From IMG/VR virus record IMGVR_UViG_3300038443_001768: DNA of 64,000 nt, one strand, 5' to 3'. The position numbers and the translations under genes are program-made. Source of the DNA: a virus. Under the pieces are notes generated by a model. The model saw only the letters and a program-made list of their open reading frames with translations. It was not told where the DNA came from and did not search any database. How positions within the stretch are numbered: position 1 is the stretch's first letter; each line of letters starts with the position of its first letter. Below are positions 2,018-41,918 of this stretch, in pieces.

Positions 2018-3328
2018 TTAGCCGTTGGCGAGTCCGACGCCGCCGATGACGTTGAAGGCCACCGGTGCGCGCGCGGCGGTGAAGCCGACTCGCTGCTCAG
2101 CGCGGAAGATCGTCTGGTTGCTGGTGAACAGGACGTGCGGCGACTCGTCGACCGTGATGCCCTGGCGGTCGAGGATCAGAGCCTCGGAGAAGTCTCCGAC
2201 GATGACGCGCGACTCGTTGGTTCCCGTACCGAGGTTGGTCGGGATGCGGTTGCTGGTGACGACCTTGAAGCCGAAGAGCGACTTGTTGGCTGCGCGACCC
2301 TGCTGGACCGAGTCCGGCCCAACCAAGTACAGACCCTGGGCATCCTTAGCCTTCAGGATGCGCGTCCAGGTGCGCGGGTGCATGACGATGGCGGTCGGCT
2401 CACCGTGGTTGTCCTGGACGTTAGCGATAGCGTCGAGGATCGAGTCAAGGAGGCCGCCGTCGTCGGTGACGGTGATGTTGGTCAGCGTGGTAGCGCCGAG
2501 ACCAGGCGTGTTGAGCAGGCCGAGCGGCTGGCCGGTGCCGGAACCGTTGAGGAACGCTGTCTCCTCAAGGGCGACAAGGCGCTTCGCAAGGTCAGAGGTG
2601 ACGAGGCGGTCGACGGCTGGGTTCGAGTCAGCAAGTAGCTGGTTCGAGATCGTGGCCAGGCCGGCTGCGGTGAAGACCGAGGCCGAGACCGTGGTCTTCG
2701 CCATGCTGGTCGACTCAGGCTTGGTCGCAAGCTCGGCGACCCATCCAGCCGACGTACCGAGCGTTAGCTGGTCAAGCTGTAGCTCGTTCGTGGTGATGTT
2801 GAGCTTCGAGCAAAGCGCGCGAAGAACGTTGTCGGACTCGCGGACCTCGACGATCTGACGCTCGATCTGCTTCTCGACGAGGTAGCCGCCCTGGTTGGCA
2901 GTTCCCTCAGTCATGGCCTTGCCGCCGGTGGCGTTCATGAGGCGCTCGCGCGCCGAACCGTCACCCTTGGAGGCTAGTCGAATGTCGTTGAAGAACGAGT
3001 ACTCGCCCGAGTCGTACGGGGTCTCGTCGTCGGTGACGGCCTTACCGTCAACGCGGCCAATGGCGAACGGGCCGATCGGCTTCTTGAGATCCTCGATGAC
3101 CTCGTCGAGCGTAGTGACCTTAGCGCGTAGCGCCTTGACCTCTTCCTCACGCTCGCGATCTGCGCGCTCAGACTTCAAGCGCTCGATCTCCGGTGTGATC
3201 TCGTTCTGAACCTGCTCGATGAAGGACTTGACGTCCTCTGCTGGTGCGCCGCTCTCAGCCTTTGAGAGAAGCTCGCTTGCACGGCTCTCTAGGGCCTCAA
3301 TCTTGGCAACGATTTCCTGAAGTTCCAT
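2018..3328 (-). CDS. Major capsid protein, HK97 fold
   Basis: N-terminal coiled-coil delta domain, GGYLV, AGWVAE, FLNGSGTGQPLGL, GDFS, FRAEQRVG motifs. Confidence 0.95.
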   Translation of the reverse strand: MELQEIVAKIEALESRASELLSKAESGAPAEDVKSFIEQVQNEITPEIERLKSERADREREEEVKALRAKVTTLDEVIEDLKKPIGPFAIGRVDGKAVTDDETPYDSGEYSFFNDIRLASKGDGSARERLMNATGGKAMTEGTANQGGYLVEKQIERQIVEVRESDNVLRALCSKLNITTNELQLDQLTLGTSAGWVAELATKPESTSMAKTTVSASVFTAAGLATISNQLLADSNPAVDRLVTSDLAKRLVALEETAFLNGSGTGQPLGLLNTPGLGATTLTNITVTDDGGLLDSILDAIANVQDNHGEPTAIVMHPRTWTRILKAKDAQGLYLVGPDSVQQGRAANKSLFGFKVVTSNRIPTNLGTGTNESRVIVGDFSEALILDRQGITVDESPHVLFTSNQTIFRAEQRVGFTAARAPVAFNVIGGVGLANG

Positions 3329-3428
3329 AACTAGTGAGTAATCCTAGCTCCGTGCCTGCCACTTTGTGACGTGCGTTGGTTGATTCGACTCAACAAAAAC
3401 TACACACATCAGTGACAGCGGCGGGCCA

Positions 3429-4388
3429 CTAGTAGACATGGACACCGTCAGCGCCGCCCTCAGTGTTGTCGTGGACTTCCTTGAGACCGACGTGCTCGAT
3501 AACCTGACCAAGCTTCCCGACGAGCGCATCGACGCGCGCAGCTACCTCTTCAGGAGACATACCGACGGTCTCCTTGAGTTCGCTGAATCGTGATCGAAGC
3601 TCATCAGAGAGGTGTTCAGTATTGATGGAGCCGTTGGCGATGTGCTCGGCGGTGATAGAGCCCGGCTCTACCGCCGATACGGCTGGCTCATCGACCTCAG
3701 GCTCGTCGACCTCTGGCTCGTCTGGTGTTTCCTCAGGTACCGGTGTTTCCGTCTCCGGAATTTCCTCGACCTCTGGCTCGACGACTGAGTCATCGACGAC
3801 CTCGACGGCCGGCGCTTCATCGTCCTCGGACTTGCCCTCAAGTACTGGCGCTGACTCGAACGCCTTACCGGCAACGACCGCAAATGTCGTGCGAGGATTG
3901 ACCGGGAACGGTGTGACGCTGATCTCGCCGAGGTCAACGTCGTAGATTCGCGGACCGGACTTCGTCATGCGGCGCTTGAAGATGCCGCCAACGGAGAACG
4001 CCTTGATGGTTCCGCGCTTGATCTTGTTGAAGATGTCTTCGGCCCACGAGCCAGCGGCTGGACGGTCAACGCGGCCTCGTACCCATAGTCCGTGCTCGTC
4101 AACCTTGGCGTCGGTGAATACACCAAGCGCCTTGTCGTACTGGTGGTGGTACAGCATGATCGGGTTCACCGATAGGAAGCTCTTCAGGCCGCGCTCGAAC
4201 GCGCCAGGCTCGAAGGCCTCTTCCTGTCGATCCACACCCCAATCGCTGGCGTAGCCCTCCACCCAGATGTCACCGTTCTCATCCTCTGTGACCTCATATG
4301 CCTTCTGGTCAAGGAAGAAGTCGTAGCGGAACTCCGCCTGCTGCGTTCCGTCTGGCTGAGTGGTGACTGCCTTAGTGCCGAATGACAT
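3429..4388 (-). CDS. HK97-family prohead protease with acidic C-terminal extension
   Basis: VEGYAS..VDRQEE, MLYHH, AFSVGG, EISVTPFPVNP motifs; upstream of capsid gene. Confidence 0.92.
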   Translation of the reverse strand: MSFGTKAVTTQPDGTQQAEFRYDFFLDQKAYEVTEDENGDIWVEGYASDWGVDRQEEAFEPGAFERGLKSFLSVNPIMLYHHQYDKALGVFTDAKVDEHGLWVRGRVDRPAAGSWAEDIFNKIKRGTIKAFSVGGIFKRRMTKSGPRIYDVDLGEISVTPFPVNPRTTFAVVAGKAFESAPVLEGKSEDDEAPAVEVVDDSVVEPEVEEIPETETPVPEETPDEPEVDEPEVDEPAVSAVEPGSITAEHIANGSINTEHLSDELRSRFSELKETVGMSPEEVAARVDALVGKLGQVIEHVGLKEVHDNTEGGADGVHVY

Positions 4389-4420
4389 AGAGAAAATCGT
4401 ACGTATTGGCTCGCCACAAA

Positions 4421-4451
4421 CACGAAAGGCCAGGTCAATGACCTGGCCTTG
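4421..4451. terminator. Hairpin terminator
   Basis: AAGGCCAGGTCA/TGACCTGGCCTT inverted repeat. Confidence 0.6.
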
Positions 4452-4472
4452 AAAGTGTTCAGCGTTGGTGGT

Positions 4473-4679
4473 CTACTTGTAGTCGGCTACGGTGTCGGCG
4501 TAGACGCGCTTACCGGTCGAGCGGCCGGCGGTGCCGGTCTTGCCTGCGACGCGGTAGTTGGGTGCCTTCTGGTCGGCCAGGTTGGTGAAGGTCTTCGCTG
4601 GCTTCGCAGAGTTGTTGCCCTGGGCCGGGCGAGCGACTGAGCGAGCGCGATTAGCGGTGGGCATAGTCTTTCGAGCCAT
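4473..4679 (-). CDS. Small basic protein (68 aa)
   Basis: MARKTMPTANRARS...; TACTAT -10 box 7 nt before ATG; flanked by terminators. Confidence 0.65.
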   Translation of the reverse strand: MARKTMPTANRARSVARPAQGNNSAKPAKTFTNLADQKAPNYRVAGKTGTAGRSTGKRVYADTVADYK

Positions 4680-4700
4680 GCCAGATATAGTAGACCCCAC

Positions 4701-4730
4701 AACGACAAGGACCGCCCGGAGGCGGCCCTT
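4701..4730 (-). terminator. Terminator after nrdJ
   Basis: AAGG-CCGC hairpin followed by TTGTCGTT on minus strand. Confidence 0.6.
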
Positions 4731-4769
4731 GCGTGACTTCAACGAACCTCGAACCACACTAGAAGTGTA

Positions 4770-6689
4770 TCAGATTTCGCACGAACCAGCCATACAGGCA
4801 AGCTCCTGTGAGCCCTCTGTCATGTCGTCGCTCTCGTAGATCTCCAACAACGACCAATCAACAGCCTTGGGCATTTCCGCGAGCAGTGCCTCGTACTCAG
4901 GCTTCGAGACCTCCTCGTATGGTGCCTGGTCGTAGGTGTGCTCCGAGTACGGCAGGAACGACAGTCCGACAACGATGTCGAAGTTCTCATACACCCAGTC
5001 ACCGACTACGTCCCATTCGTCGTTGCGTACGTTGACCGTTACGGACGGGTTGTGGTCGCACCAATGCTCGGCGAAGACTTTCCAGTGTTCGAGCACATCG
5101 ATTGCTGAGAGATCAGACCTAGTAACGGCCGTCTCCGGTGCCTGCTTTGGGTACGAGAACACCCAGGTCTTATCGGGATTCATCACATCATCCTCACACG
5201 GCACGCCAGCCATGTAGAGAACATTGGCTACCGGGTCGTGCTTGTTGCCTCGATTGCGGCGGATGTAGTATCGACCGTGCGCGGCATGCATTCCGTTTCC
5301 GTGCCCACCAACGAGTTCCGTTGAGTTCCCGGCCGGCTTCATGCACGTCCTGGCCAGCGACGCATTGATGCCAATGATCTCAGCGTACTTGGAGTTCGTA
5401 ACCCTGACTACGTGGTTTAGTTGATCAAGGATGCGGGCCATCTCATCCTTATCAGCCTTAGCGTTCAGCAAGGGCGAGTCCTGGACGCCGGTCATGCCGA
5501 CACCGAGAAGGCGCTCTTCCTCAGAGTTCCTCTTCCAATCATCGCTGATGTAGCGGAAGTGTGTGAACGACGATTGGATTGTTCCGATCATCGTGGCAAC
5601 TCGAACCTTTCTGGTGAGCGAAATCAAGTCATCCTCTGGTCGAACCGTGATCTGCGAGAGGTTGCAGAACTGTCGATCACGAAGGATGATCTCGCCGCAG
5701 GGGTTGAGTCCGAACTTGTAGAACGAGCGGCCCAACTTGGTGGCCTTCGCGGCGGCGGCTGCGCGGTTGAAGAACCCGCGCTCGCCGCTGCCTGAGGCGC
5801 GCAGCGCTGCCCACTCAGCGTTGAAGACTTCTCGCGACGGTCGACCATCCCACGCCGCTGAGTTGTTAGCGAGCGCAAAGTGCTTGCGGTGGTCGTCGTT
5901 GTACCATTCGCCGGACTTGGCGTCGCGCATCATGAGGTCGTCGGGAGACGACAATGAAATCAGCGCAGAACGACGAACGCCGCCCACAACTACGACCTCG
6001 CCCACCATACACATGATGGAGTGCGCCTCGATCGGCGTCAGACGACGACCAGCGGCGTGCTCGAACACACCAATCGTGTGCAAGAACAGCCGCACCAACG
6101 GATCAGGCCCAGAGGCACGCCCGCCAAAGGTCTTGAGCTTCGCGCCGGCCTCACGCACACGCGAGACGTCAAACTCAGGGATGCGCCCCTCGTAGAGAGC
6201 GGAAATCAGGGCACGGAACGCGTATGCCCAGCCGTCCTTGGAATCCTCAACAACAATGACATCATCGACGCGTACCAAGACCGCCGGAATCTCAGGAAGC
6301 TGCTCGACCTCGTCAGGCTCGACAGAAAAACCAACTCCGGTTCCGCACATCAAGATGTGCATGGCCTCGTCAAAGGCCTCCGGGCGATTTACAGCAATAT
6401 ATGAACAGTTGTAGGCGGCTGTAGCGTCGCGCTCCAACGCTGGCCCAGCGGTCATCAATGCGCGCATCGATGGTAGGACGTCGCGCGAAAGGATAGACGA
6501 CCTGATCAGACCGTAGTCCTCTTCAGAGAGCGGTCTGTGGCGTCGCTCAAGATGACTACGAACGTAATCAACAAAACGGTCAACGGTCTCTTCCCACGTC
6601 TCGCGGCGGGCTAGATCATCGCGCCAACGAGCGTACTTGGACTGGTGGATCTGCTGCTCATAAAGCGTCGGCAGCGCGTGCGACAACAT
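4770..6689 (-). CDS. nrdJ: Class II (adenosylcobalamin-dependent) ribonucleotide reductase
   Basis: YNCSY, GTGVGFSV, VVVGGVRRSALISLS, NPCGEI catalytic loop, C-terminal CMAGSCEI redox pair. Confidence 0.95.
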   Translation of the reverse strand: MLSHALPTLYEQQIHQSKYARWRDDLARRETWEETVDRFVDYVRSHLERRHRPLSEEDYGLIRSSILSRDVLPSMRALMTAGPALERDATAAYNCSYIAVNRPEAFDEAMHILMCGTGVGFSVEPDEVEQLPEIPAVLVRVDDVIVVEDSKDGWAYAFRALISALYEGRIPEFDVSRVREAGAKLKTFGGRASGPDPLVRLFLHTIGVFEHAAGRRLTPIEAHSIMCMVGEVVVVGGVRRSALISLSSPDDLMMRDAKSGEWYNDDHRKHFALANNSAAWDGRPSREVFNAEWAALRASGSGERGFFNRAAAAAKATKLGRSFYKFGLNPCGEIILRDRQFCNLSQITVRPEDDLISLTRKVRVATMIGTIQSSFTHFRYISDDWKRNSEEERLLGVGMTGVQDSPLLNAKADKDEMARILDQLNHVVRVTNSKYAEIIGINASLARTCMKPAGNSTELVGGHGNGMHAAHGRYYIRRNRGNKHDPVANVLYMAGVPCEDDVMNPDKTWVFSYPKQAPETAVTRSDLSAIDVLEHWKVFAEHWCDHNPSVTVNVRNDEWDVVGDWVYENFDIVVGLSFLPYSEHTYDQAPYEEVSKPEYEALLAEMPKAVDWSLLEIYESDDMTEGSQELACMAGSCEI

Positions 6690-6928
6690 GTACTCCTAGT
6701 GCTGAAAGTTATTATCTCGGTCCCGGCGGGGCGTCCGCCGGAGAGGTGCGATCGACGTAGTCGCCGTCTTCCTCAGGACCGAGAAAAGTATCAACCGCCA
6801 TGCCTACGAAGCACGCAGGTAGTCCTAGTGTTCGTACCACCTTATAGGTGGTTATCAACCCAATACCCGCGGCCAGTTTGAGGCCGCTGATCGCTAGGGT
6901 TGCTTGGACTGACGGGTGTAGGAGACGC

Positions 6929-7177
6929 CTAGCCGGCGTCGGAGAGAAGGCGGTCCGGTGAATGCGCGGCGTCCCACTTCTCATAGTACTTCTCAAAATC
7001 GAGATGCGCCTTCTGGGAGCGCGCTTCGGAAATCTCCATCGGTGTCACGTTCTTACATAGTGAGGTGCGCTCACCACAAGATGGACACAACTTGTAGACA
7101 TCCAAAACCGGCCAGTTGAGGGCGCAGATGGAACATCTACGCGCTCGCTCGATCTCGTCGTGACGGTCAGCGATCAC
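6929..7177 (-). CDS. Small Zn-ribbon protein
   Basis: CSIC...CPSC motifs; coupled to neighbouring gene. Confidence 0.6.
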   Translation of the reverse strand: MIADRHDEIERARRCSICALNWPVLDVYKLCPSCGERTSLCKNVTPMEISEARSQKAHLDFEKYYEKWDAAHSPDRLLSDAG

Positions 7178-7331
7178 TCTTCCTCATTCTCCGCGATACC
7201 GTAGAGAAGAGCAAAGCTGATCGCCTCGTTGAGTAGCGCGAGCGCCGCCACCGGAACGCCAGCCCACGGCGACACCGAAAACACCAGCAGCGTCGCCAGG
7301 ACCAGCAAGGTCGTCGACAGCGGGGCCGGCA

Positions 7332-7679
7332 TCACGCGGCCTCGTCGAACGCCGACTTGAATCGCGGCCACAGCATACCTAGATCACAAACCAGGCAAAC
7401 GCGCGCAAAGCCCGCGCCGCGCTCAAGCATGCTCTTACGCTTCTTGGATGTCTCGGCGACAGGATCGTACGTCACCACCGCCATAGTCTCGTTACCGCAG
7501 CCGCAGGTGTGGGCCTCGTCGAAGCCCTTGCCGCGCGGCTTCGGAAACCGAACCAGTTGGCCCTCGCAGCGATCCGGCAGGATCGCGCCGCCTTGATGCT
7601 CGACCTCCTCAACGAGGACATTGAGGTCATCTAGTGTGAACTCAGGTCCGTTAGCACCAATATTGGGCTCTTCACTCAT
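7332..7679 (-). CDS. Hypothetical Cys-containing protein
   Basis: 115 aa ORF overlapping upstream stop; CGCG and CLVC motifs. Confidence 0.6.
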   Translation of the reverse strand: MSEEPNIGANGPEFTLDDLNVLVEEVEHQGGAILPDRCEGQLVRFPKPRGKGFDEAHTCGCGNETMAVVTYDPVAETSKKRKSMLERGAGFARVCLVCDLGMLWPRFKSAFDEAA

Positions 7680-7956
7680 CGCTTTCCTCGTTTTCGATCT
7701 CTACGTGCTCTCCGCAATGCGGGCAGTCGAATTCGAGCGAACCCAGATCCAACATGAAGTCCAATTCAGGCTCGGGCCAGTCGCGTGCTACGACTTCTCG
7801 CAAGCGGTCCTTGACAACCGTGAGATAGCCGATAGCATTCTCAGGAGACATACCATCGTAGGAGAATTGCGGCGCGGTCCCGTTCTCGTTGAGCACGACC
7901 TCGATGGTGATCGTGCCCACGACGGGAAGGTCTTGCTGCTCTTGCGTCTGCTGCAT
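7672..7956 (-). CDS. Hypothetical protein with CPHC motif
   Basis: 94 aa ORF in operon context. Confidence 0.6.
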   Translation of the reverse strand: MQQTQEQQDLPVVGTITIEVVLNENGTAPQFSYDGMSPENAIGYLTVVKDRLREVVARDWPEPELDFMLDLGSLEFDCPHCGEHVEIENEESDE

Positions 7957-7990
7957 GGGGTGTTAGAAGTCTAGCACCCCGGCGCTTTCG

Positions 7991-8188
7991 CTACCTGCGG
8001 CGGCGGCGTCGCTTTCTGCGCGACGGCGTCGTCTTCGGCGTGTTGCGCGGCTTGCCGCGCTGGTAGGAGTCGACGACCACGCGCGTCTTGCCGCGATCCG
8101 GGCCGCGCGGCGAGCGGGTGTGCGACTTCACGGCTACGCCGGTGCGCGATCCTGGCTTGCGCTTTCTCTTCTTTCGGCCTCGGGTCAT
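7991..8188 (-). CDS. Very basic Arg/Lys-rich small protein
   Basis: MTRGRKKRKRK...RRKRRRRR directly downstream of portal gene. Confidence 0.6.
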   Translation of the reverse strand: MTRGRKKRKRKPGSRTGVAVKSHTRSPRGPDRGKTRVVVDSYQRGKPRNTPKTTPSRRKRRRRRR

Positions 8189-8195
8189 GGTCGAC

Positions 8196-10475
8196 CTAGA
8201 TTACCGCCTCGGGCGGCAGCGAGATCGGCGTGAATGCCCGGCGGCAGCGCGGGTGCTCCAGGCGACGCTCGCGTGCCTCGTCAATGGTCCATACTTGTCC
8301 GTCGGCGGCAATGCAGGGCTCGTCATGGTCTCGTCCATCGTGGACGAAGACGTGCGACTCGCCGTTCATCTCGGCTACCGTGAGCACGCCCTCGTTGTAG
8401 GCATGGACAGCCTCTGTCATGGCTACGGTCTCGGCGTGTCCACTACGCCAGCGGTCCATCTCGCCGCGGATGGCGCGCTCGATATCGCTCTTGGTCTGGC
8501 CGGCGCTCAAAGCCTCGGCGACCTTACGTGCGACATCATTACGAAGGTTGTTGATGATGGCGCGGAGGCCGCCCTTGCGGTAGACGACCTCACGGGCTAC
8601 GGCCTCGTAATCGATTTCCTCGTCGGGGCGGCGTCCAACTGTTCCCTGCTGGACCACCGAGGTAGAGACGGCTCGCTTGGTGGCCTTCTCCAGCGCACGA
8701 GCCATCAAGGACTGAAAACGAGTCCAGGCCGACGACTTGCGTAGCTTACTGCGGATTCTATCGCCCGGTGCCTTTCCCTCGACGGCGCGCTCAAGCTCAT
8801 CCAACAGGTCACGCTCAAGCGAATGAATCGCTTCCTTGATCTCAGCGGTCAACTCCGCGGTGATCGCGTCCACGGCGATGTCACGATCGCTCATCAGGAC
8901 GTCGTCCGGGGGCGTGATACGCGACGCTAGATCATGACTGGCGGGTTCCATGGCCTTAGCGCCAGCGGCGATTTCCTCAAGCCGGGCGATGATCTCGTTG
9001 GCGTCGAAGGACTTGCCGGAGGCGACGGCTGTTCGCGACTTCGGCTTCGGCAGGCTGGTGTCGCGCACGCTGCGCGGGAAGGCGACCGTGTTCTCTGGGT
9101 TCGGAGGGCGGCCAGGTTCGCCCGCGAGGTTGAAGTCGGGGAAGCCGGCCGTGGTGTCGTCGGCGGTTCCATTCGGTCCGGGAAGGTTGATGACGAGGTC
9201 GTCGCGCTCGTCGCCAAGCGGGTCCAGCCCGGCGTACTTACGTACCTCGCGGATACGGACGCCCGGCAGGGCCGCGAACGCGGACGAGAGGCGGAGCTTC
9301 TCCTCCTCGGGGATGATGTACTCGTAGTCGATCTTGAAGTCCATCTCCCAAGGCGACGTGATGCCCTTGGAGATCGCCTTCTGGAGCTTGTTCAACAACG
9401 GACGCATCGTCTTGTTATCGAAGATGCGCTGATCGGCGTTGCTGGTGCCGGTCGCGGCGGGCGCTGACGCGTAGCCCAGCAGCGAGGCCGGGACGCGGAA
9501 CATGGCAAAGATCCGATCGCGTGAGAGGTTTGTGAGGTTCTCGAACGCCGCGTCGGTCGCCGACGGCGCGATCGACTGATACTTCAGTCCGGCTTCGAGC
9601 ACCATCAGCGCGCCCGCATTGCGGGGGCCTCCATACATGGCGCGTAGCTGGGTCTGGAGGCGACGCAGCACGTCCTTCGGGACGCGGCGGTCGGACTGCA
9701 CCACCATCGAAGGCTGGGCGCGCTTCTCGTAGTAGCTGGCCATCGTATCGGTGAGCGCTAGGTCCATGTCGAAGACCCGCGACCCGCCCTGGATGACGCC
9801 GAGCCCATAGTAGGGGTCGTGCGGGTTCGGCATCTTGAAGTGCATGACCTGACTCGAAGGGATCTTCAGCTTGCCGGTCCCGGGAACAGAGTATTCATAG
9901 GACTCGATCCCCCATTGGCCGGGAACGACCTTGACCAGCGGCGGGGCGAGCCGATAAATCGCCAGCGGTCGACCCGACGAGTCCGGCCGCCACTTCAGCC
10001 AATATGCGTTGCCGGTGAGCAGGTAGTCGATCAGCGTTAGCTCGATCAACTCCTCGTAGCCCATGAACGGATTCGGGTCTTCGAAGAGCTTGCCTAGCAG
10101 GTAAGGGGCGGACTTGATCTCGTCCGGCGTGTGCGGCGTGCGGCGCGACTCCGGAATGTAAGAGACGCCCTTCTGCTCGAAGTGCCACTCAGCCGATGAC
10201 GCGGTCTCCGTAATGAGGCGCACGCAGTCCATGACCCAATCGACAGCGTCCACCTTGCCTCCGTAGGCGTTGAGGTGTCGCCCAGCCTCGCGCTGCGCAA
10301 ACGGTGTCCGCGTCCGAGCAGGACCATCGACGATGATCGGCTGTGTCGGCCCGGCCATCAGGTCGGGTGTCGCAGGGAACGCCTTCTGGGCCGCGCCGGC
10401 CTGTGCTCGCATCATCGCCTTGAGGTCCACGGAGAGAATATTATGCGCCGCCGTGCCACCCCAAGTGGTACGCAT
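8196..10475 (-). CDS. Portal protein fused to MuF/gp7-like head morphogenesis domain
   Basis: HK97 portal motifs (LLTGNAY, VMHFK.PNP..PYYGL, VLEAGLKY, FRVPASLLG); C-terminal AETVAMTE...HPRCRRAF MuF signature. Confidence 0.9.
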   Translation of the reverse strand: MRTTWGGTAAHNILSVDLKAMMRAQAGAAQKAFPATPDLMAGPTQPIIVDGPARTRTPFAQREAGRHLNAYGGKVDAVDWVMDCVRLITETASSAEWHFEQKGVSYIPESRRTPHTPDEIKSAPYLLGKLFEDPNPFMGYEELIELTLIDYLLTGNAYWLKWRPDSSGRPLAIYRLAPPLVKVVPGQWGIESYEYSVPGTGKLKIPSSQVMHFKMPNPHDPYYGLGVIQGGSRVFDMDLALTDTMASYYEKRAQPSMVVQSDRRVPKDVLRRLQTQLRAMYGGPRNAGALMVLEAGLKYQSIAPSATDAAFENLTNLSRDRIFAMFRVPASLLGYASAPAATGTSNADQRIFDNKTMRPLLNKLQKAISKGITSPWEMDFKIDYEYIIPEEEKLRLSSAFAALPGVRIREVRKYAGLDPLGDERDDLVINLPGPNGTADDTTAGFPDFNLAGEPGRPPNPENTVAFPRSVRDTSLPKPKSRTAVASGKSFDANEIIARLEEIAAGAKAMEPASHDLASRITPPDDVLMSDRDIAVDAITAELTAEIKEAIHSLERDLLDELERAVEGKAPGDRIRSKLRKSSAWTRFQSLMARALEKATKRAVSTSVVQQGTVGRRPDEEIDYEAVAREVVYRKGGLRAIINNLRNDVARKVAEALSAGQTKSDIERAIRGEMDRWRSGHAETVAMTEAVHAYNEGVLTVAEMNGESHVFVHDGRDHDEPCIAADGQVWTIDEARERRLEHPRCRRAFTPISLPPEAVI

Positions 10476-11700: not shown

Positions 11701-12019
11701 TCTCGCCGCGGTCGTCGTCGGTGAGGTCATCGATGAGCTACAGAGCCGAAGCGGCTTCGACGCCTGGGCCGAGGAGATCGACGACCAGGTTTGGGAGGAA
11801 CTCGTAGATCGGCTCGTCGAGCGGGTCGACACGTTTACGGCATCGACGATCGCCGTCGGACCGAAAGCGGCTGCCGCCTTCCTGCGCGTCATCGACATTC
11901 TTCACGACAGCCTTGGTCCCGGCGATGGCGACTTCTGGGACTGGATCGAAGAAAACGACAAGCTCGCCTATGATGCCTACTACGATGTCCTAGCTCAGAT
12001 GCGAGAGGTGTCGGCGTGA
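11693..12019 (+). CDS. Hypothetical acidic protein
   Basis: GAGGAG RBS, coupled ORF. Confidence 0.6.
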   Translation: MSSLAAVVVGEVIDELQSRSGFDAWAEEIDDQVWEELVDRLVERVDTFTASTIAVGPKAAAAFLRVIDILHDSLGPGDGDFWDWIEENDKLAYDAYYDVLAQMREVSA

Positions 12020-12957
12020 TCCTTGCCGTCATTGTCGCTGTGCTGTTTGCGTGGTATGTCGCTGTTCGCCTCTACCCGAGCCAGAACGAGCCCACCAAGG
12101 GCAACACGTTCTCCGCTGAGATCCTCGCTGACTCGCTGTCGCCCGCCGGGTATCGGCTCACGACGTTCCTGGTCACGCTACCGCGCTTCATTCTCGCCGA
12201 GTTCAACACCCATAGGCGAATCAGCCGCAACTCGGCCTCGTCGCGCGCGATCCCGATCAAGCGTCAGATCCAGCGCGTCATCAAGTACCCCTTCGTGCCT
12301 CTCGGCTTCGGCGGCGCACAGAAGGGCATGCAGGCCGCCGAGGATCTCTCTGGCTGGCGTGAACGGGTAGCTCGCCAGACGTGGCTGAAGACGCGCTACG
12401 CCGCCGTTGCGGCGGCATGGATGCTGGACCGCCTCGGCGTTCACAAGTCATTCGCGAACCGCGTACTTGAGCCGTGGCTGTGGCACACTGTGATCGCGAC
12501 CGCCACTGAGTGGGAGAACTTCTTCGCGCTGCGCACCGACGCCGCCGCCCAGCCCGAGTTCCGTCACGTGGCCGAGATGATGGAACTCTTGTACCGCGAC
12601 AACAAGCCGAAGAAGCTCGGGCCGCTGGAGTGGCATCTTCCGATGCTATCAGCGGAGGATCGTAAATTTCTCTGCCCGAGCGTACATTCGTTCGTCGACG
12701 CTGGCCGCGCCGCGCGGGTCAGTTTCGACACACACGATCGCGACGAACCGATCAGGGCTTCGTACGCGCGTGCTGAGATGCTGACCTCGAACGGTCATTG
12801 GTCGCCGACCGAGCACCAGGCCAAGGTCGGGCTGTCGGTTGAGTCAGCCGCGGGCCACAACGGCAACCTCCAGGGCGACTGGATGCAGTTCAGGAAGATG
12901 TTCGACAACGAAGACAACTACGCACTACTCAAGGAGAGCACGCATGTCGAGGCCTGA
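12016..12957 (+). CDS. thyX: FAD-dependent thymidylate synthase
   Basis: AEFNTHRRISRNSASSRAIP ThyX motif, HKSFANRVLEP, HWSPTEH. Confidence 0.9.
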   Translation: MILAVIVAVLFAWYVAVRLYPSQNEPTKGNTFSAEILADSLSPAGYRLTTFLVTLPRFILAEFNTHRRISRNSASSRAIPIKRQIQRVIKYPFVPLGFGGAQKGMQAAEDLSGWRERVARQTWLKTRYAAVAAAWMLDRLGVHKSFANRVLEPWLWHTVIATATEWENFFALRTDAAAQPEFRHVAEMMELLYRDNKPKKLGPLEWHLPMLSAEDRKFLCPSVHSFVDAGRAARVSFDTHDRDEPIRASYARAEMLTSNGHWSPTEHQAKVGLSVESAAGHNGNLQGDWMQFRKMFDNEDNYALLKESTHVEA

Positions 12958-16230: not shown

Positions 16231-16235
16231 TCAAG

Positions 16236-16306
16236 CGGGGCACCTGGGATTCGAACCCAGAAGGCGCGGTTTTGGAGACCGGCCGGCACAACCTACGCTG
16301 TACCCC
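16236..16306 (-). tRNA. tRNA-Trp(CCA)
   Basis: Cloverleaf, loop CT CCA AA, G73. Confidence 0.85.
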
Positions 16307-16396
16307 ATGTACTGGCTGCTTACTTCCGGATCGTGGTCCGGTGTCGGCACTTAGCGGACTCTCCACGTCCACGACAGGAGAACACGGCCAAGTGAG

Positions 16397-16639: not shown

Positions 16640-16712
16640 CGTCCCTGGCAGGATTTGAACCCGCGACCCCCTGGTTCGAAGCCAGGTGCTCTATCCACTG
16701 AGCTACAGAGAC
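16640..16712 (-). tRNA. tRNA-Arg(TCG)
   Basis: Loop CT TCG AA. Confidence 0.9.
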
Positions 16713-16716
16713 TAAG

Positions 16717-16801
16717 TGCGCGAGGTGGGACTCGAACCCACACGACCCTAAGGCCAACCGGGTTTGAGCCGGTCGTGTCTACCAATTCCTACCACTCACG
16801 C
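16717..16801 (-). tRNA. tRNA-Leu(CAA)
   Basis: Long variable arm, loop CT CAA AC. Confidence 0.9.
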
Positions 16802-16984: not shown

Positions 16985-17106
16985 GAAATCCCATCAGAGG
17001 CCAGGGCGTCGATGGGAAGGACTACCTTGACCGCCCTCCGCCCAAGCGGCGAAGAATTCGCGTGCTGCCACACGCTTGCCCTCGGTGGCAGCCGAGGGGC
17101 GATCTC
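16985..17106 (-). ncRNA. Unknown 122-nt multi-hairpin RNA with kissing loops
   Basis: Closing stem GAGATC/GATTTC, five hairpins, complementary loops CTGCCA/TGGCAG; fills the Pro-Leu spacer. Confidence 0.6.
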
Positions 17107-17112
17107 AGTGAG

Positions 17113-17274: not shown

Positions 17275-17347
17275 CTCCGCCGCCAGGATTCGAACCCGGA
17301 ACTCTCGGGTAACAACCGAGCACGTTCTCCGTTTACGCCACAGCGGA
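17275..17347 (-). tRNA. tRNA-Asn(GTT)
   Basis: Loop TT GTT AC, G73. Confidence 0.9.
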
Positions 17348-17352
17348 TCGTA

Positions 17353-17425
17353 TTGCAGGCCTAGGATTCGAACCCAGACTTCACGGCTTCAGAGGCCGGC
17401 GGGCTGCCAGTTACACCAGCCTGCA
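17353..17425 (-). tRNA. tRNA-Gln(CTG)
   Basis: U1:A72, loop CT CTG AA. Confidence 0.9.
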
Positions 17426-17429
17426 TTGA

Positions 17430-17501
17430 ATGCGGGACTCGGGTTCGAACCGAGCCGATGAGCTTCAAAGGCTCACGTGCTGCCAGCTACACCATCCCGC
17501 A
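17430..17501 (-). tRNA. tRNA-Gln(TTG)
   Basis: U1:A72, loop CT TTG AA. Confidence 0.9.
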
Positions 17502-17514
17502 GAGGAAGGAAAAC

Positions 17515-17537
17515 AACTCTAGCATAGTCTCGTGACA
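17515..17537 (-). promoter_or_regulatory. Promoter of tRNA operon 1
   Basis: TGTC-N9-TGCTAGAGTT, same motif before all three tRNA operons. Confidence 0.7.
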
Positions 17538-17540
17538 AGC

Positions 17541-17970
17541 GTGGGCCGGACAGCGATGAACGCCGCCCGGCCCACTACCCGGAGAACCATGACCACCAAC
17601 TGCTCCTGTCGCGAAACCTGCGTGCGACAAGCCTGCACTGCCGGACCGGAGAGGAGCGCCGACGACCTAGCGCTCAACTCTCCGGCCCATAAGCCCTTTC
17701 GGGGAGAGGAGGGACTCCACCCTCAACGTCACGACCCGGCGTGGGCAGCCGTTCGGTGATAGCCAATACCACCCAGGTCGATCCGTGCTCATCGACGGGC
17801 CGCCAAGCCCAACACATCGCTGACTCGGAGTGGCTGCTCCTGTCCACCGCTACGACTCCCAGGCTGATGACCCTGTCGTGCAGCTTTTCCCGACGCTTCG
17901 ATGACACTTTAGCCGCGTGCTGCTACGGCTTGTTCGGTCACTCTCTGCCGCACTGGCCGGTGCGGCGTTG
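17541..17970 (-). ncRNA. Unknown ~430-nt highly structured RNA
   Basis: Own promoter (TGCTACAGT at ~17976-17984), no credible ORF, about ten hairpins, strong terminal hairpin. Confidence 0.6.
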
Positions 17971-18020
17971 AAGGAACTGTAGCACATGTCGAGGGGTGTG
18001 TGTCAAGGCCGAGACGGAAA

Positions 18021-18708
18021 TCAATCTGCGCGCCCGTCGTTCAAGGCGTCGATCCGCGCCTGCGCGTCTTCAATGTCCTCCGCGCACGTCGGCCCGATCC
18101 ACTTGCCTTCCCGCGAGTCGTAGACCTCGCAGCCAGGAGGACCGTGCAGGCAAGCGACGATCGCGGCGTCCTGATCGTCGTAGCCGGTCTCCATGCCCAG
18201 CGCGAACATCCCGGCGCAGCCGACGCGGTAGCGGCTCATCGCCATCCATCCGGCCTGCTCTTTTCGGTCAACGTGGCGATCCCGACGCGCCCCCGCCAGC
18301 GCTTGTCGTCGGCATGGGGGTCGCGGAACTCGTTGCCGCTCAGCGCGCCGTGCAGCGCGTTCCTGACGCCGTGCGCCGGACGGCCTGCGAGCAGGTCGGA
18401 CCGCGCCGTATCGAGCAGATGCAGAAGATCGCGCTGCGCCGCGGTCATCGCTCCGGCGCTCCTTTCTGGCCCATCTCGGCGATCTGCGCGAGCGCTTCCA
18501 CGACCTCGCGCCAGTCGTCGCCCGGCACGCAAGCGAGCCGTGTGCCTTCGAGGTGGTCCACAATCAGATCGGGGACACCGGCCGCGCGCATCCGGCGCTG
18601 GGCGTAGTCGATGCGGTTCCACGCAGCCCCGAGCGCGTCGTAGGCGTGCTTCACGTCGGCCTGGAGATCGTCGATCGACGGGCGCCCGTTTAGTTCTGAA
18701 TTCGTCAT
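18021..18708 (-). CDS. Three small hypothetical genes (18021-18239, 18236-18448, 18445-18708)
   Basis: ATGA-coupled ORFs divergent from cca. Confidence 0.55.
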
Positions 18709-18768
18709 GCCGCTAGTATGGCAGCTTCGGGCGTTGCAGTCCAGAGGACGACGTGGTACGCTCCCTCA

Positions 18769-20190
18769 ATGACCAACGTACGCGCGGCGGACGCCCTGAT
18801 GGCGGATATCTTCGGAAAGGACGCGTATCGCGTCGGCGGCAGCGTGCGTGACGAAGTTCTCGGCCGCCACATCAAGGACGCCGACTATGTCGTTCAGCAC
18901 CACACGCTGGACGCGATCAAGCGAAAGCTTCGTCGCGGCTTCGAGCATCGCGGTCAGGTCGCGATCACGAAGCTCGAACTCCGTACCGGACAACACGCCG
19001 GATGGCGCGTCGGCGCGCCTTGGAACATCGAGATCATGATGCCGCGAGGCGAGCAGAAGGTCGAGACCGACGAGGGTAACGAGCGGCACAAGTTCATCAT
19101 CACGCTCGACCCCGACATGCCTCTGGAGGTCGACGCTCTGCGGCGCGACTTCACAATGAACGCCCTGTATCGAAACGTCGTCACCGGAGAGATTGACGAC
19201 CCTCTGGGCGGCGTCGCGGCGATCGAGGACGGTGAGGTCACGACGACGGATGCGTCGTCGTTCCGCGACGACCCTCTGCGCACGCTGCGCGCTCTGCGCT
19301 TCGTGTCGCAACTTGGCTTCGATCTCGACGACGACACGTATGGACAGATGTTCGTGCACGCGAAGTCTGTCGATGGGCTCACCGACAAGGGTGTCTCTGG
19401 AACTGCGTTCGACGAACTCTGCAAGATCCTGATGGGCCGACACGTCGCGAAGGCGCTGCGGCTCGCGAGGGATTCACGGGTTCTGGAGTCGCTGCTGCCG
19501 GAGCTTGCTCCGATGCTGGGTCACGACCCGCAGAACTCGCACCATGCGTTCTCAACCGACGAGCACACCTTCGTCGCCCTCGACGTTGCGGCCGGCTTCG
19601 GGCTGCCGCTGAGGGTGCGTCTCGCGCTGCTCTTCCACGACGCGGGCAAGCCGCTCGTCGAGTGGGTCGGAAAGGACGGCATGAAGCACTACTTCGAATC
19701 CAAGGATCAGCCAGGATCGATCGATCACCAGGAGGCGTCGGCGGAGTTGTGGCTCGCCGTCGCGGACCGCCTGAACGTACCGCGTTCACTGCGGCGCGAT
19801 GTCGAGACGTTGATCCGGCGTCACATGGTACCGCTGACGCTACGTCTGAAGCCGGCGAAGGTCCGCAAGTGGCGATGCGAGCTTGGCGACGACCTGCTCG
19901 CAGACCTGCTGCGGCACCGGCTCTGCGATGTCATGGCCAAGGGCGTCATCGACTACGAGGCCATGCGCGCAGTGAATCGCATGGAGGAGATCCGCGAGGA
20001 CGCCGTCCGCGACGGGGTGCCTGTGACGGTTCGCGACCTCCCCGTCTCGGGCGGAGACATCGCCGCTATGGGCGTCAGCGGCCCTCGGATCGGTGAGATT
20101 CAGCGGCAGCTTCTCCACGAGGCGGTTTCGCAGCCCTCCAACAACACACGAGACCGCATGTACATGCGGGCGCTGAAGCTGGCTGCGTGA
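18769..20190 (+). CDS. cca: CCA-adding tRNA nucleotidyltransferase (class II) with HD domain
   Basis: VGGSVRDEVLG..KDADYV, DALRRDFTMNAL, FRDDPLRTLRALRF, LLFHDAGKP; TACGCT box 6 nt before ATG. Confidence 0.92.
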   Translation: MTNVRAADALMADIFGKDAYRVGGSVRDEVLGRHIKDADYVVQHHTLDAIKRKLRRGFEHRGQVAITKLELRTGQHAGWRVGAPWNIEIMMPRGEQKVETDEGNERHKFIITLDPDMPLEVDALRRDFTMNALYRNVVTGEIDDPLGGVAAIEDGEVTTTDASSFRDDPLRTLRALRFVSQLGFDLDDDTYGQMFVHAKSVDGLTDKGVSGTAFDELCKILMGRHVAKALRLARDSRVLESLLPELAPMLGHDPQNSHHAFSTDEHTFVALDVAAGFGLPLRVRLALLFHDAGKPLVEWVGKDGMKHYFESKDQPGSIDHQEASAELWLAVADRLNVPRSLRRDVETLIRRHMVPLTLRLKPAKVRKWRCELGDDLLADLLRHRLCDVMAKGVIDYEAMRAVNRMEEIREDAVRDGVPVTVRDLPVSGGDIAAMGVSGPRIGEIQRQLLHEAVSQPSNNTRDRMYMRALKLAA

Positions 20191-23613: not shown

Positions 23614-23636
23614 AACTGTAGCAGATCTACGCGACA
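23614..23636 (-). promoter_or_regulatory. Promoter of tRNA operon 2
   Basis: TGTC-N9-TGCTACAGTT. Confidence 0.7.
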
Positions 23637-30538: not shown

Positions 30539-30540
30539 GA

Positions 30541-30672
30541 ACAGGCCGGCGCTCTACCGTTGAGCTACAAGCGGGCGAACCATCAAGGAGCGACCTCGAA
30601 GTAATCCGACTCGACGTGCACGTCGAGAAGGGTTGCCGCCAGGGCGGATTCGAACCACCAACCTCCGGCCGT
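30541..30672 (-). ncRNA. Circularly permuted tRNA mimic (YrlA/Y-RNA-like topology)
   Basis: Order: terminal stem, T arm GGTGG TTCGAAT CCGCC, closed extended acceptor stem, D arm TAGCTCAACGGTAGAGC, terminal stem. Confidence 0.75.
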
Positions 30673-30674
30673 AA

Positions 30675-31471: not shown

Positions 31472-31494
31472 AACTCTAGCACATCTCCATGACA
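31472..31494 (-). promoter_or_regulatory. Promoter of tRNA operon 3
   Basis: TGTC-N9-TGCTAGAGTT. Confidence 0.7.
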
Positions 31495-41162: not shown

Positions 41163-41176
41163 GCGTGAAAAGCTTT

Positions 41177-41471
41177 GCTAGCCTCGATAGCCGGGGTTCT
41201 GTTCCGCTGACGCGGCGCTGACCATCCATCTACGCCTCGCGGCGTCCGTCATCTCTCAACGTGACGGTTCTCTCACCATGACCTCCTCCGGGTGTCCTCA
41301 GGAGGTCGAACTTGAGATCTCATCCAGGCCTCGGCGAACTGCTGGCTTATTAGGCTTTGCTCTCGTGGTCCAAGCGGCCAAAGACCTCCCACCGGCCGTT
41401 TACGTCGAGTTAGCCCCGACGTGGATGCCCCGAACTTCCTCTACGTCTCCGCAGCGGCCAGCCCGGCTAGC
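41177..41471 (-). ncRNA. rnpB: RNase P RNA (compact, ~295 nt)
   Basis: P1 GCTAGCC/GGCTAGC, P2 GCTGGCC/GGTCAGC, P3, GAGGAAGTTCGGGG pairing with AACAGAACCCCGGCTA (P4 with bulged U), AGATGGATG after GNRA-capped P18, GGT in L15-like loop. Confidence 0.88.
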
Positions 41472-41918
41472 CCTGTGACTCTAGCAGATATCGAATCTCG
41501 TTCAAGGCTCTGATCGCGTCTACTTCGGGCGCTCCGCCTTCAGGCGAGTCTGCGCCTGCGATGCGCATCAGCGACATCACCGCGCAGACTAGCGTGGCGT
41601 CCTCGAACTTCAGTAGTTCCTTGGATGGCGCGGCTTCGTAGACTTCATCGACCGAGAAGCGTGTGAACATTACGGTGAGTTCGACTCCAACGGGTATAGC
41701 GCCTGGAAGGCTTCGATGTTGAGCGAGAAGCCATAGTTTATGACCTCGTCGCCCACACGCTGAAGCACAACCGTACCAACACCAGGAACGACGATGTCGA
41801 TGTCCTGCTCGGTTCGTCCGTCTCCATAGTCGCGAGGCTCGTGATAATCGATCTCGGCGTCGACCTGTTTAGTGTCAACAGGCCGCGCGGACACGAAGCT
41901 CACGTTCCAGAGTTGCAA
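41467..41918 (-). CDS. Two small hypothetical genes (41467-41670, 41670-41918)
   Basis: Coupled ORFs; last stop codon overlaps the RNase P 5' stem. Confidence 0.55.

What the first reader, a model, noticed from the sequence alone, without database searches (positions are those of the whole stretch)
17541..17970. ~430-nt structured non-coding RNA with its own promoter, upstream of tRNA operon 1
Seen (minus strand): promoter TTGACA...TGCTACAGT followed by continuous hairpins. Examples: GCCGCAC/GTGCGGC, AGCCGT/GCGGCT, ACGAC/GTCGT, GTCGAT/ATCGAC, GAGGG/CCCTC, CCC-GAAA-GGG, a long GGGCCGGAGAG..GAGCGC/GCGCTC..CTCTCCGGTCC stem, TGTCGC/GCGACA and a terminal GTGGGCCGG/CCGGCCCAC. ACAGGAGCAG occurs twice, and CGACCT/AGGTCG may form a pseudoknot. 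No credible ORF. Known: large ncRNAs such as GOLLD and ROOL lie beside phage tRNA arrays. Inference: a short relative of these or a new large ncRNA class.
Basis: partly seen in the sequence, partly recalled or inferred. Interest (0 to 1): 0.75.

Follow-up and report, generated by a model that had tools for sequence, protein, structure and literature searches.

The report
Enlarged manA-family RNA heading phage tRNAs
The flagged stretch is a real, evolutionarily maintained folded RNA gene of an uncultured GC-rich phage, but it is not a new class or a GOLLD/ROOL relative: it is an enlarged, uncatalogued member of the known 'manA' RNA family (recently reported to build RNA-only cages), made from the same special promoter as the phage's tRNA genes.

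Summary
Observation confirmed; interpretation partly right. Window 17645-17970 (minus strand) is a conserved, non-coding, highly structured RNA with its own promoter. It matches Rfam manA (RF01745) below threshold (35.9 bits, cut-off 55.2, E 1.3e-5). It carries the family's signature GAGUGAC-N-GAA-N-AA / hairpin / UAA-N-GUG. A model built only from GC-rich relatives hits this site alone in the window (E 8e-8) and scores true cyanophage manA RNAs similarly.

Four related phage contigs keep it at the head of the same Gln-Gln-Asn-Val tRNA array. There, 26 of 86 pairs change on both sides and 95.5% of cells stay paired, against 40-44% in slid controls. The 77-aa ORF is frame-shifted in the closest relative.

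The motif TGCTAsAGT occurs five times in 64 kb (0.64 expected), each just upstream of a non-coding unit: this RNA, three tRNA arrays, and an RNase P-like RNA. In 35 of 40 GC-rich soil and Actinomycetes relatives, the RNA lies inside a tRNA array, with spacers of about 6 and 14 nt.

Best reading: a free-standing RNA co-expressed with tRNAs, probably self-assembling, and not a riboswitch. The last ~100 nt (17541-17644) are lineage-specific. This scan had already noted manA-like RNAs in phage tRNA arrays on other DNA. New variant of a known kind.

The parts
18001..18006 (-). -35-like hexamer TTGACA of the RNA's own promoter
   Evidence: Invariant in window, L002, L240 and L241. The spacer to TACAGT is 19 nt.
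17976..17984 (-). Extended -10 element TGCTACAGT. The transcription start is inferred at about 17969-17970.
   Evidence: One of 5 TGCTANAGT sites in the window against 0.64 expected, all upstream of non-coding RNA units. Also conserved in L240, L241 and L270.
17947..17966 (-). P1: 5' hairpin, 7 bp, loop CGGCCA
   Evidence: Sequence invariant in four relatives. Corresponds to P1 of the Rfam manA model and of model R1.
17941..17945 (-). 5' strand (GAGAG) of the closing helix of the multi-stem junction
   Evidence: Pairs with 17704-17708. Four of 5 pairs change on both sides in L240 (GGAUA/UAUCC). L270 has AGGAC/GUCCU, and soil relatives have GGGAG/CUCCC.
17906..17938 (-). P3 with the family signature: (GAG)UGAC-C-GAA-C-AA, hairpin, UAA-A-GUG
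   Evidence: The signature pattern found only manA-type RNAs in IMG/VR. The hairpin covaries at 3 pairs.
17789..17904 (-). P4 domain: closing helix UCAUCG/CGAUGA around four hairpins (P4a 17882-17897, P4b 17853-17878, P4c 17822-17844, P4d 17797-17810). Enlarged relative to canonical manA.
   Evidence: Helices 5-10, with changes on both sides in the closing helix and in P4a, P4b, P4c and P4d (not in the inner stem of P4b). The Rfam alignment shows a 74-nt insertion here. Coordinates.
17727..17785 (-). P5: long irregular helix with an inner CC-GAAC-GG hairpin
   Evidence: CGACCUGG/CCGGGUCG in the window against CGAUUCAG/CUGGAUCG in L002.
17709..17724 (-). P6: hairpin GAGGG-UGGAGU-CCCUC next to the 3' strand of the closing helix
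   Evidence: Three of 5 pairs change on both sides. Nearly the same element occurs in soil relatives and in Rfam manA.
17704..17708 (-). 3' strand (CUCUC) of the closing helix; end of the manA-like core
17694..17703 (-). Small hairpin CCC-GAAA-GGG
   Evidence: Kept in all relatives, with the loop swapped to UUCG in L240, L241 and L270.
17645..17686 (-). Long GC-rich hairpin: likely 3' end structure or U-less terminator of the conserved unit
   Evidence: Present in window, L002, L240, L241 and L270, with compensatory changes. In L240 and L241 the tRNA promoter follows directly.
17607..17629 (-). Extra hairpin UGUCGC/GCGACA (lineage-specific)
   Evidence: Only in the window and L002, where it keeps pairing as GCCGAC/GUUGGC. 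Absent from L240 and L241.
17579..17594 (-). Block GGUCAUGGUUCUCCGG, identical in L002 within an otherwise variable stretch. It is complementary to the core 5' strand GAGAGUGACC. Role unexplained.
   Evidence: RNAalifold pairs alignment columns 32-41 with 389-401.
17541..17575 (-). Terminal 13-bp GC-rich hairpin with no U tract (lineage-specific)
   Evidence: Five pairs change on both sides between the window and L002. Not called as an intrinsic terminator.
17516..17524 (-). Extended -10 element TGCTAGAGT of tRNA array 1 (separate promoter)
   Evidence: Conserved in L002, L240 and L241.
17430..17501 (-). tRNA-Gln(UUG), first gene of the 18-tRNA array downstream
   Evidence: Same order (Gln-Gln-Asn-Val...) in L002, L240, L241 and L270.

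Best explanation
Window 17645-17970 (minus strand) encodes a free-standing, stable, non-coding RNA of the manA family. It is an enlarged GC-rich variant with an expanded P4 domain and two extra 3' hairpins.

Shown: it is conserved as a structure and not as a reading frame. It is homologous to manA RNAs. It has a conserved promoter element of the same TGCTAsAGT type that also precedes the phage's three tRNA arrays and its RNase P-like RNA. In related phages it always sits at the head of the same tRNA array. In a sister clade from soil and Actinomycetes genomes it lies inside tRNA arrays, a few nucleotides from the flanking tRNAs.

Inferred: it is expressed together with the phage tRNAs as part of a 'stable RNA' programme. 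It is released as a discrete molecule, here ending at the long 3' hairpin; in the sister clade it would be cut out by the tRNA-processing enzymes. It acts in trans rather than as a switch for a downstream gene.

More speculative, by analogy with canonical manA RNAs studied by cryo-EM: copies join through loop-loop contacts into a closed homo-oligomer. Its role would be tied to the phage's tRNA and translation take-over, as is also suspected for GOLLD and ROOL.
For: Family.
- Rfam manA match at 17699-17965, 35.9 bits, E 1.4e-7 locally and 1.3e-5 for the whole window, spanning the full model. L002 scores 40.2 bits.
- The signature pattern returned 120 or more IMG/VR stretches, all of manA type.
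- Model R1, built from 34 GC-rich relatives without the window, hits the window only at 17701-17970 (33.1 bits, E 8e-8). It scores canonical cyanophage manA RNAs similarly, at 27-47 bits.

Structure.
- On four relatives, 86 pairs are 95.5% paired against 40-44% in slid controls. Changes on both sides occur in 26 pairs, against 2-6 in slid controls, and 0 of 500 shuffles reach the observed values.
- The closing helix has at least five covarying versions across the relatives.

Not coding.
- The 77-aa ORF is cut to 48 aa by a 2-nt indel in L002 and has no counterpart in L240 or L241.

Own transcription unit.
- TGCTANAGT occurs 5 times against 0.64 expected, each within about 45 nt upstream of an RNA unit. 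The promoter is conserved in L002, L240, L241 and L270.

tRNA link.
- The same position before tRNA-Gln(UUG) is kept in L002, L240, L241 and L270.
- In 35 of 40 distinct GC-rich loci the RNA lies within a same-strand tRNA array, with median spacers of 6 nt upstream and 14 nt downstream.
- Three Actinomycetota/Actinomycetes MAG contigs show the same arrangement, and a fourth, truncated copy in a Gaiellaceae contig lies next to same-strand tRNAs.

Cage formation by manA RNAs: doi 10.64898/2026.07.01.735769.
Against: - The Rfam score is below the curated threshold, so membership rests on remote-homology arguments.
The start, the end and the abundance of the RNA are therefore inferred.
- The hairpins 3' of the core lack U tracts, so transcription may read through into the tRNA array.
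- Oligomerisation has been shown only for shorter canonical manA RNAs in vitro. I could not identify covarying loop-loop partners in this variant.
- One related phage contig (L242) has the same tRNA array without the RNA, so it is dispensable at least in some lineages.
- The structure used for the covariation counts was derived from the same four sequences.
Confidence: 0.65

Rival explanations
1. Cis-acting leader or riboswitch, the original proposal for manA. The folded core would sense a ligand or factor and control, through the 3' hairpins, how much transcription reads into the tRNA array.
For: - manA was described as a 5'-UTR riboswitch candidate (PMC2864571).
- The core is followed in every relative by a long GC-rich hairpin.
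- In the window and L002, a 16-nt invariant block (17579-17594) can pair with the core's 5' strand GAGAGUGACC, as an expression platform would.
Against: - The tRNA array has its own conserved TGCTAGAGT promoter downstream of the hairpins.
- The invariant block and the terminal hairpin are missing from L240 and L241.
- Sister-clade copies sit between tRNAs with 4-17 nt spacers and no terminator-like element.
- The hairpins have no U tract.
- Canonical manA RNAs form defined cages without a ligand.
Confidence: 0.15
2. A monomeric trans-acting RNA that binds a phage or host protein of the tRNA pathway, such as the neighbouring CCA-adding enzyme, RNase P or a tRNA-targeting defence nuclease, and does not form a cage.
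For: - Same genomic evidence as the best explanation.
- The CCA-adding enzyme gene is the divergent neighbour in the window and lies only 59 nt away in L241.
- P1 and several loops are sequence-invariant across relatives whose Cca proteins are only 60-66% identical.
Against: No partner is identified. The only experimental structural data for the family show RNA-only oligomers.
Confidence: 0.15
3. A distant relative of GOLLD or ROOL, or a wholly new class of large RNA.
For: Position next to phage tRNA arrays, as for GOLLD and ROOL. Ornate structure.
Against: There is no GOLLD or ROOL match at E <= 10. There is clear sequence and structure homology to manA instead.
Confidence: 0.02
4. A small protein gene: the 77-aa ORF at 17674-17907 on the minus strand.
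For: The ORF is open in the window. GC is mildly higher at the third codon position over 17750-17900. There is a weak Usp match below threshold (E 0.002, 19.1 bits against a cut-off of 24).
Against: - A 2-nt indel truncates it to 48 aa in L002.
- There is no equivalent ORF in L240 or L241, and many indels are not multiples of three.
- It has a GTG start with no ribosome-binding site.
- Substitutions are compensatory in helices rather than synonymous.
Confidence: 0.01

Closest known systems
manA RNA motif (Rfam RF01745; Weinberg et al. 2010, PMC2864571; cryo-EM assemblies in Ren et al. 2026 preprint, doi 10.64898/2026.07.01.735769)
   Same: - Signature GAGUGAC-N-GAA-N-AA / hairpin / UAA-N-GUG.
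- A 5' hairpin P1.
- A closing helix around a multi-stem junction.
- A P6 hairpin directly before the 3' strand of the closing helix.
- Phage origin.
- A full-length but sub-threshold match to the Rfam model.
   Different: - About 270 nt of core against about 190 nt, with an expanded four-hairpin P4 domain and a longer P5, plus two or more extra 3' hairpins.
- 62% GC, from an actinophage-like soil-type phage, not AT-rich marine cyanophage.
- It has its own promoter and a tRNA array downstream, and is not in the 5' UTR of a protein gene.
- It scores below Rfam's gathering cut-off.
- Oligomer formation is untested.
GC-rich manA-like RNAs embedded in tRNA arrays of soil metagenome contigs and Actinomycetes MAGs (found here, loci L144-L239, L257, L258, L261; not catalogued as far as I could search)
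   Same: Same core motifs and helices, including near-identical P6 and closing-helix context. GC-rich. Tied to tRNA arrays. All are sub-threshold to Rfam manA (29-47 bits).
   Different: - The soil copies are about 220 nt.
- They have no own promoter or 3' hairpins.
- They lie between tRNAs (usually Glu or Met upstream, and Pro, Tyr or Asp downstream).
- The window's RNA heads the array as its own unit and is larger.
GOLLD and ROOL RNAs (Rfam; cryo-EM in doi 10.1101/2024.12.08.627333)
   Same: Phage or prophage ornate RNAs often next to tRNA islands. RNA-only cage formation is reported for them and for manA. Function is unknown.
   Different: No sequence or structure homology was detected. GOLLD and ROOL are much larger (about 600-800 nt or more). 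The resemblance is by analogy only.

Membership tests
manA RNA (RF01745) | Score at or above Rfam's gathering cut-off (55.2 bits) with the curated covariance model | tested here: not met
   35.9 bits, E 1.3e-5 for the whole window, full model span 1-192. L002 scores 40.2 bits. The match is significant but sub-threshold.
manA RNA (RF01745) | Conserved junction signature GAGUGAC-N-GAA-N-AA, hairpin, UAA-N-GUG | tested here: met
   Present at 17905-17943. The pattern hit 120 or more IMG/VR stretches, all with the manA-type hairpin and context.
manA RNA (RF01745) | Architecture: P1 hairpin, then a closing helix enclosing P3, a multi-hairpin domain (P4), P5 and P6, supported by covariation | tested here: met
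   RNAalifold on four relatives recovers these helices. There are 26 pairs with changes on both sides and 95.5% of cells are paired. The Rfam and R1 alignments place the same helices.
manA RNA (RF01745) | Homology link to accepted members through intermediate sequences | tested here: met
   Model R1, built from GC-rich relatives only, hits the window (33.1 bits) and canonical cyanophage manA loci (L123 46.9, L065 42.0, L016 36.0, L028 34.3 bits).
manA RNA (RF01745) | Location in the 5' UTR of a protein-coding gene (cis-regulatory annotation) | tested here: not met
   Downstream lie hairpins, a second promoter and an 18-tRNA array. Relatives show the same.
manA RNA (RF01745) | Self-assembly into closed homo-oligomers (8-, 10- or 60-mers) through kissing loops | not testable with these tools
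   Known only from the preprint. No RNA 3D or complex tool is available here, and I found no covarying loop pair.
GOLLD / ROOL | Match to the Rfam covariance models of these families | tested here: not met
   No match in 17400-18100 at E <= 10 or in the whole window at E <= 1.
Riboswitch / transcription attenuator | Aptamer coupled to an expression platform (terminator and anti-terminator) controlling a downstream gene | tested here: inconclusive
   Hairpins follow the core, but they lack U tracts. An independent promoter precedes the tRNAs. The block that could pair with the core is absent from L240 and L241.

The most novel reading that the evidence does not exclude
manA-family RNAs would be a third, widespread class of tRNA-island-associated, self-assembling phage RNA cages, beside GOLLD and ROOL. 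Their 'riboswitch candidate' label would then be wrong. In actinobacterial phages, an enlarged version is produced from the stable-RNA promoters, or cut out of tRNA precursors. It would act with or on the phage tRNA pool, for example by enclosing or presenting tRNAs, or by decoying host tRNA-directed defences.
Probability: 0.3. Interest if true: 0.8.

Novelty: new variant of a known kind. Interest (0 to 1): 0.55.

Why it matters
manA has been an unexplained 'riboswitch candidate' since 2010, and in 2026 it was reported to build RNA-only cages in vitro. Here it takes a different genomic form. It is a promoter-driven RNA gene at the head of a tRNA array. In a large GC-rich clade from soil and Actinomycetes it is a unit embedded between tRNAs.

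That argues that the family acts as a free RNA linked to the phage tRNA programme, as suspected for GOLLD and ROOL. It also supplies new, larger natural variants and a host phylum (Actinomycetota) in which the function could be tested.

In the papers I could search, the tRNA link is not mentioned.

Tried and rejected
- **BLASTN against cultured phages.** Neither the RNA region nor a soil relative gave a match. A 20-kb stretch matched only tRNAs of cluster C mycobacteriophages. No cultured phage could therefore be named as a carrier.
- **Whole genome.** None is held for this window.
- **Protein-coding reading.** The 77-aa ORF is rejected.
- **Proposed pseudoknot.** CGACCT/AGGTCG is rejected, because CGACCU belongs to the covarying helix P5.
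- **Kissing loops.** I checked by eye whether the P3 loop (GCAGC) kisses the P4a loop (GCUGC). The complementarity is lost in L240 and L241, so there is no support.
- **P4 closure.** Model R1's alignment closed P4 on the first CGAUG. Covariation in four sequences favours the second CGAUG, as in the Rfam alignment.
- **Adding L270 to the alignment.** MAFFT misaligned P1 and the 3' hairpin, so L270 was left out of the pair counts.
- **Generic scan.** The promoter and terminator scan found nothing in 17300-18300.

Full report
**What is there**

On the minus strand, between a small upstream gene that ends at 18021 and the first tRNA of an 18-tRNA array (tRNA-Gln at 17430-17501), lies a 520-nt stretch with no convincing gene. 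GC by codon position supports coding on the minus strand only above 18021. The 441-nt stretch folds better than shuffled versions (z = -3.03).

**Relatives and conservation**

- The neighbouring divergent gene (18718-20190, plus strand) is a CCA-adding tRNA nucleotidyltransferase with an HD domain.
- Its close homologs led to two IMG/VR contigs, L001 and L002 (91% protein identity).
- Its more distant homologs (53-66% identity) led to Logan contigs L240, L241 and L270.
- All of these carry the same RNA in the same place, just upstream of tRNA-Gln(UUG)-Gln(CUG)-Asn-Val.
- One related contig, L242, has the array but not the RNA.

**It is an RNA, not a protein**

- On the four-sequence alignment A4, RNAalifold predicts 102 pairs.
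- I kept the 86 pairs that lie inside the RNA. Of the cells, 95.5% form standard pairs, against 40-44% when partners are slid by 1-3 columns.
- Changes on both sides occur in 26 pairs, against 2-6 in the slid controls. No shuffle out of 500 reaches the observed values.
- The caveat is that the structure was derived from these same sequences.
It has no counterpart in L240 or L241.

**What family**

- Rfam gives a full-length but sub-threshold match to manA (RF01745) at 17699-17965. The score is 35.9 bits against a cut-off of 55.2, with E 1.4e-7 locally and 1.3e-5 for the window.
- The stretch GAGUGAC-C-GAA-C-AA, hairpin, UAA-A-GUG is the family's junction signature.
- A narrower pattern on JGI metagenomes returned 96 stretches. 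About 55 of them are 64-70% GC soil contigs with a clearly related ~220-nt RNA.
- I aligned 34 distinct copies (A2). The consensus fold has 45 pairs, 26 of them with compensatory changes.
- From that alignment I built model R1 without the window.
  - R1 finds exactly one site in the 64-kb window, 17701-17970, at 33.1 bits and E about 8e-8.
  - It scores true cyanophage manA RNAs in the same range, 27-47 bits.
- The window's RNA, the soil clade and canonical manA are therefore one family. None of the GC-rich copies I scanned against Rfam reaches the cut-off (29.6-47.5 bits).

**Anatomy** (coordinates)

- P1 hairpin, 17947-17966. Its sequence is invariant in all four relatives.
- Closing helix, 17941-17945 with 17704-17708: GAGAG/CUCUC here, GGAUA/UAUCC in L240, AGGAC/GUCCU in L270, GGGAG/CUCCC in most soil copies and GUGAG/CUCAC in L213.
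- P3 with the signature, 17906-17938.
- An enlarged P4 domain with four hairpins, 17789-17904.
- P5, 17727-17785.
- P6, 17709-17724.
- After the core, a CCC-GAAA-GGG hairpin follows (loop UUCG in L240, L241 and L270), then a long GC-rich hairpin at 17645-17686. Both are conserved with compensatory changes.
- In L240 and L241 the tRNA promoter comes next. The conserved unit is therefore about 326 nt.
- The remaining ~100 nt of the finding exist only in the window and L002. They comprise a hairpin at 17607-17629, an invariant block at 17579-17594 and a 13-bp hairpin at 17541-17575.
- The invariant block can pair with the core's 5' strand. I cannot say whether that matters.

**Transcription**

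- TGCTANAGT occurs five times in the window against 0.64 expected, and 0 of 100 shuffles reach 5. All five are on the minus strand.
- Each lies just upstream of a non-coding unit:
  - this RNA (17976-17984);
  - tRNA array 1 (17516-17524);
  - tRNA array 2 (23615-23623);
  - tRNA array 3 (31473-31481);
  - a sub-threshold RNase P class A match at 41171-41473 (motif at 41478-41486).
- The RNA's promoter, including TTGACA, is conserved in L002, L240 and L241. L270 keeps a near-identical form, TTGACG.
- The RNA is thus its own transcription unit in a promoter class that, in this window, serves only stable RNAs. None of the 3' hairpins has a U tract. Read-through into the tRNAs cannot be excluded.

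**The tRNA link is general in the GC-rich clade**

- In 35 of 40 distinct GC-rich loci the RNA lies inside a same-strand tRNA array. The median spacer is 6 nt to the upstream tRNA and 14 nt to the downstream one.
- The upstream tRNA is tRNA-Glu(CUC) or tRNA-Met. The downstream one is tRNA-Pro, Tyr or Asp.
- This is how a molecule cut out by the tRNA-processing enzymes would be arranged.
- Flanking genes on two such contigs match phage protein families, including an RtcB tRNA ligase.
- A scan of species-representative genomes found four more copies:
  - Two 'uncultured Actinomycetes' MAG contigs of 524 kb and 2.15 Mb and one Actinomycetota contig carry the same RNA-in-array arrangement.
  - A Gaiellaceae contig carries a copy truncated at the locus end, with same-strand tRNAs upstream of it.
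- The window's own phage has a capsid protein most like those of actinobacteriophages, at about 28% identity. Its host is plausibly an actinobacterium; this is an inference.
- By contrast, 40 loci carrying canonical-type manA RNAs (the GAGUGAC-N-GAA-N-AA signature; nearly all AT-rich, cyanophage-like) mostly have no tRNA within reach. Only three carry any tRNA, and only two of those have one beside the RNA.

**Function**

- The 2010 description called manA a riboswitch candidate in 5' UTRs (PMC2864571).
- A July 2026 preprint shows by cryo-EM that manA RNAs form closed 8-, 10- and 60-mers through kissing loops. It does not mention tRNAs (doi 10.64898/2026.07.01.735769).
- GOLLD and ROOL also form cages and lie near phage tRNA islands (doi 10.1101/2024.12.08.627333).
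- The evidence here fits a free, trans-acting RNA co-expressed with tRNAs much better than a cis-acting switch. It has its own stable-RNA promoter, a separate promoter for the tRNAs, embedding between tRNAs in the sister clade, and no protein gene downstream.
- Whether this enlarged variant assembles into a cage, and what it does, is inference.

**Status and novelty**

- The RNA is a new, uncatalogued variant of a known family.
- I reached the manA reading before consulting earlier notes of this scan. Those notes report 33 similar observations of manA-like RNAs in phage tRNA arrays in at least 31 other genomes. They agree with my reading but are not independent evidence.
- In the searchable literature I found no paper linking manA to tRNA arrays.

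Noticed in passing
window 41171-41486 (-): Sub-threshold RNase P class A match: 27.1 bits against a cut-off of 100, local E 8.2e-7, full model span. It has the conserved core motifs GAGGAAGUUCGGGG, UAGAUGGAUGG and ACAGAACCCCGGCU, in a shortened RNA of about 300 nt. It lies directly downstream of a TTGAAC-N16-TAGAGT promoter of the same TGCTAGAGT class as the tRNA arrays. This may be a phage-encoded, minimised RNase P RNA. Another first-stage note (e1-5883349) flags it too.
   Followed up: partly
window 17516-17524, 17976-17984, 23615-23623, 31473-31481, 41478-41486 (-): The promoter element TGCTAsAGT occurs only five times in 64 kb (0.64 expected), always just upstream of a non-coding RNA unit. 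It looks like a dedicated stable-RNA promoter class of this phage. The three tRNA-array copies also share yTGTCr 9 nt upstream.
   Followed up: partly
window 17579-17594 (-): The 16-nt block GGUCAUGGUUCUCCGG is identical in L002 within an otherwise ~55-60% identical stretch. It is complementary (10 bp with a bulge) to the most conserved core strand, GAGAGUGACC. It also starts a 23-codon ORF of equal length in both phages that ends in the tRNA promoter. Unexplained.
   Followed up: partly
L151:3856-3923, L167:2904-2968, L181:6196-6254 (-); window 16660-16772 (-): Sub-threshold Y-RNA-like (YrlA, RF02553) matches occur inside the soil tRNA arrays (41-48 bits against a cut-off of 69), with a weaker one in the window's array 1 (31 bits, overlapping tRNAs). 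Further non-tRNA RNAs may be embedded in these arrays.
   Followed up: no
L270:500-1235 (-): In this more distant relative, about 700 nt with no called gene separate the manA-like RNA from the tRNA promoter. They include a second element with a P6-like hairpin (GAGGGUUGGACUCCCUC) enclosed by AGAGGGGG/CCCCCUCU. This may be a second structured RNA.
   Followed up: no
L257:7241-7466, L261:1438-1655, L258:3924-4146: Strong copies of the GC-rich manA-like RNA (171-227 bits with R1) lie inside 17-24-tRNA arrays on Actinomycetes and Actinomycetota MAG contigs. Two of these contigs are 524 kb and 2.15 Mb, so the arrays are probably integrated in chromosomes (prophage or island).
   Followed up: partly
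window 16985-17111, 16231-16395, 30539-30674 (-): Array 1 has two gaps and array 3 has one, each 120-165 nt long with no tRNA call. Other first-stage notes propose a kissing-loop RNA and a permuted tRNA there. I did not examine them.
   Followed up: no
window 2018-10475, 12016-12957, 18718-20190: Context genes: major head protein, head maturation protease, ribonucleotide reductase, portal protein, ThyX-like thymidylate synthase and a CCA-adding enzyme with an HD domain. The capsid is about 28% identical to those of actinobacteriophages. No close relative exists among 50,697 deposited phage genomes.
   Followed up: partly
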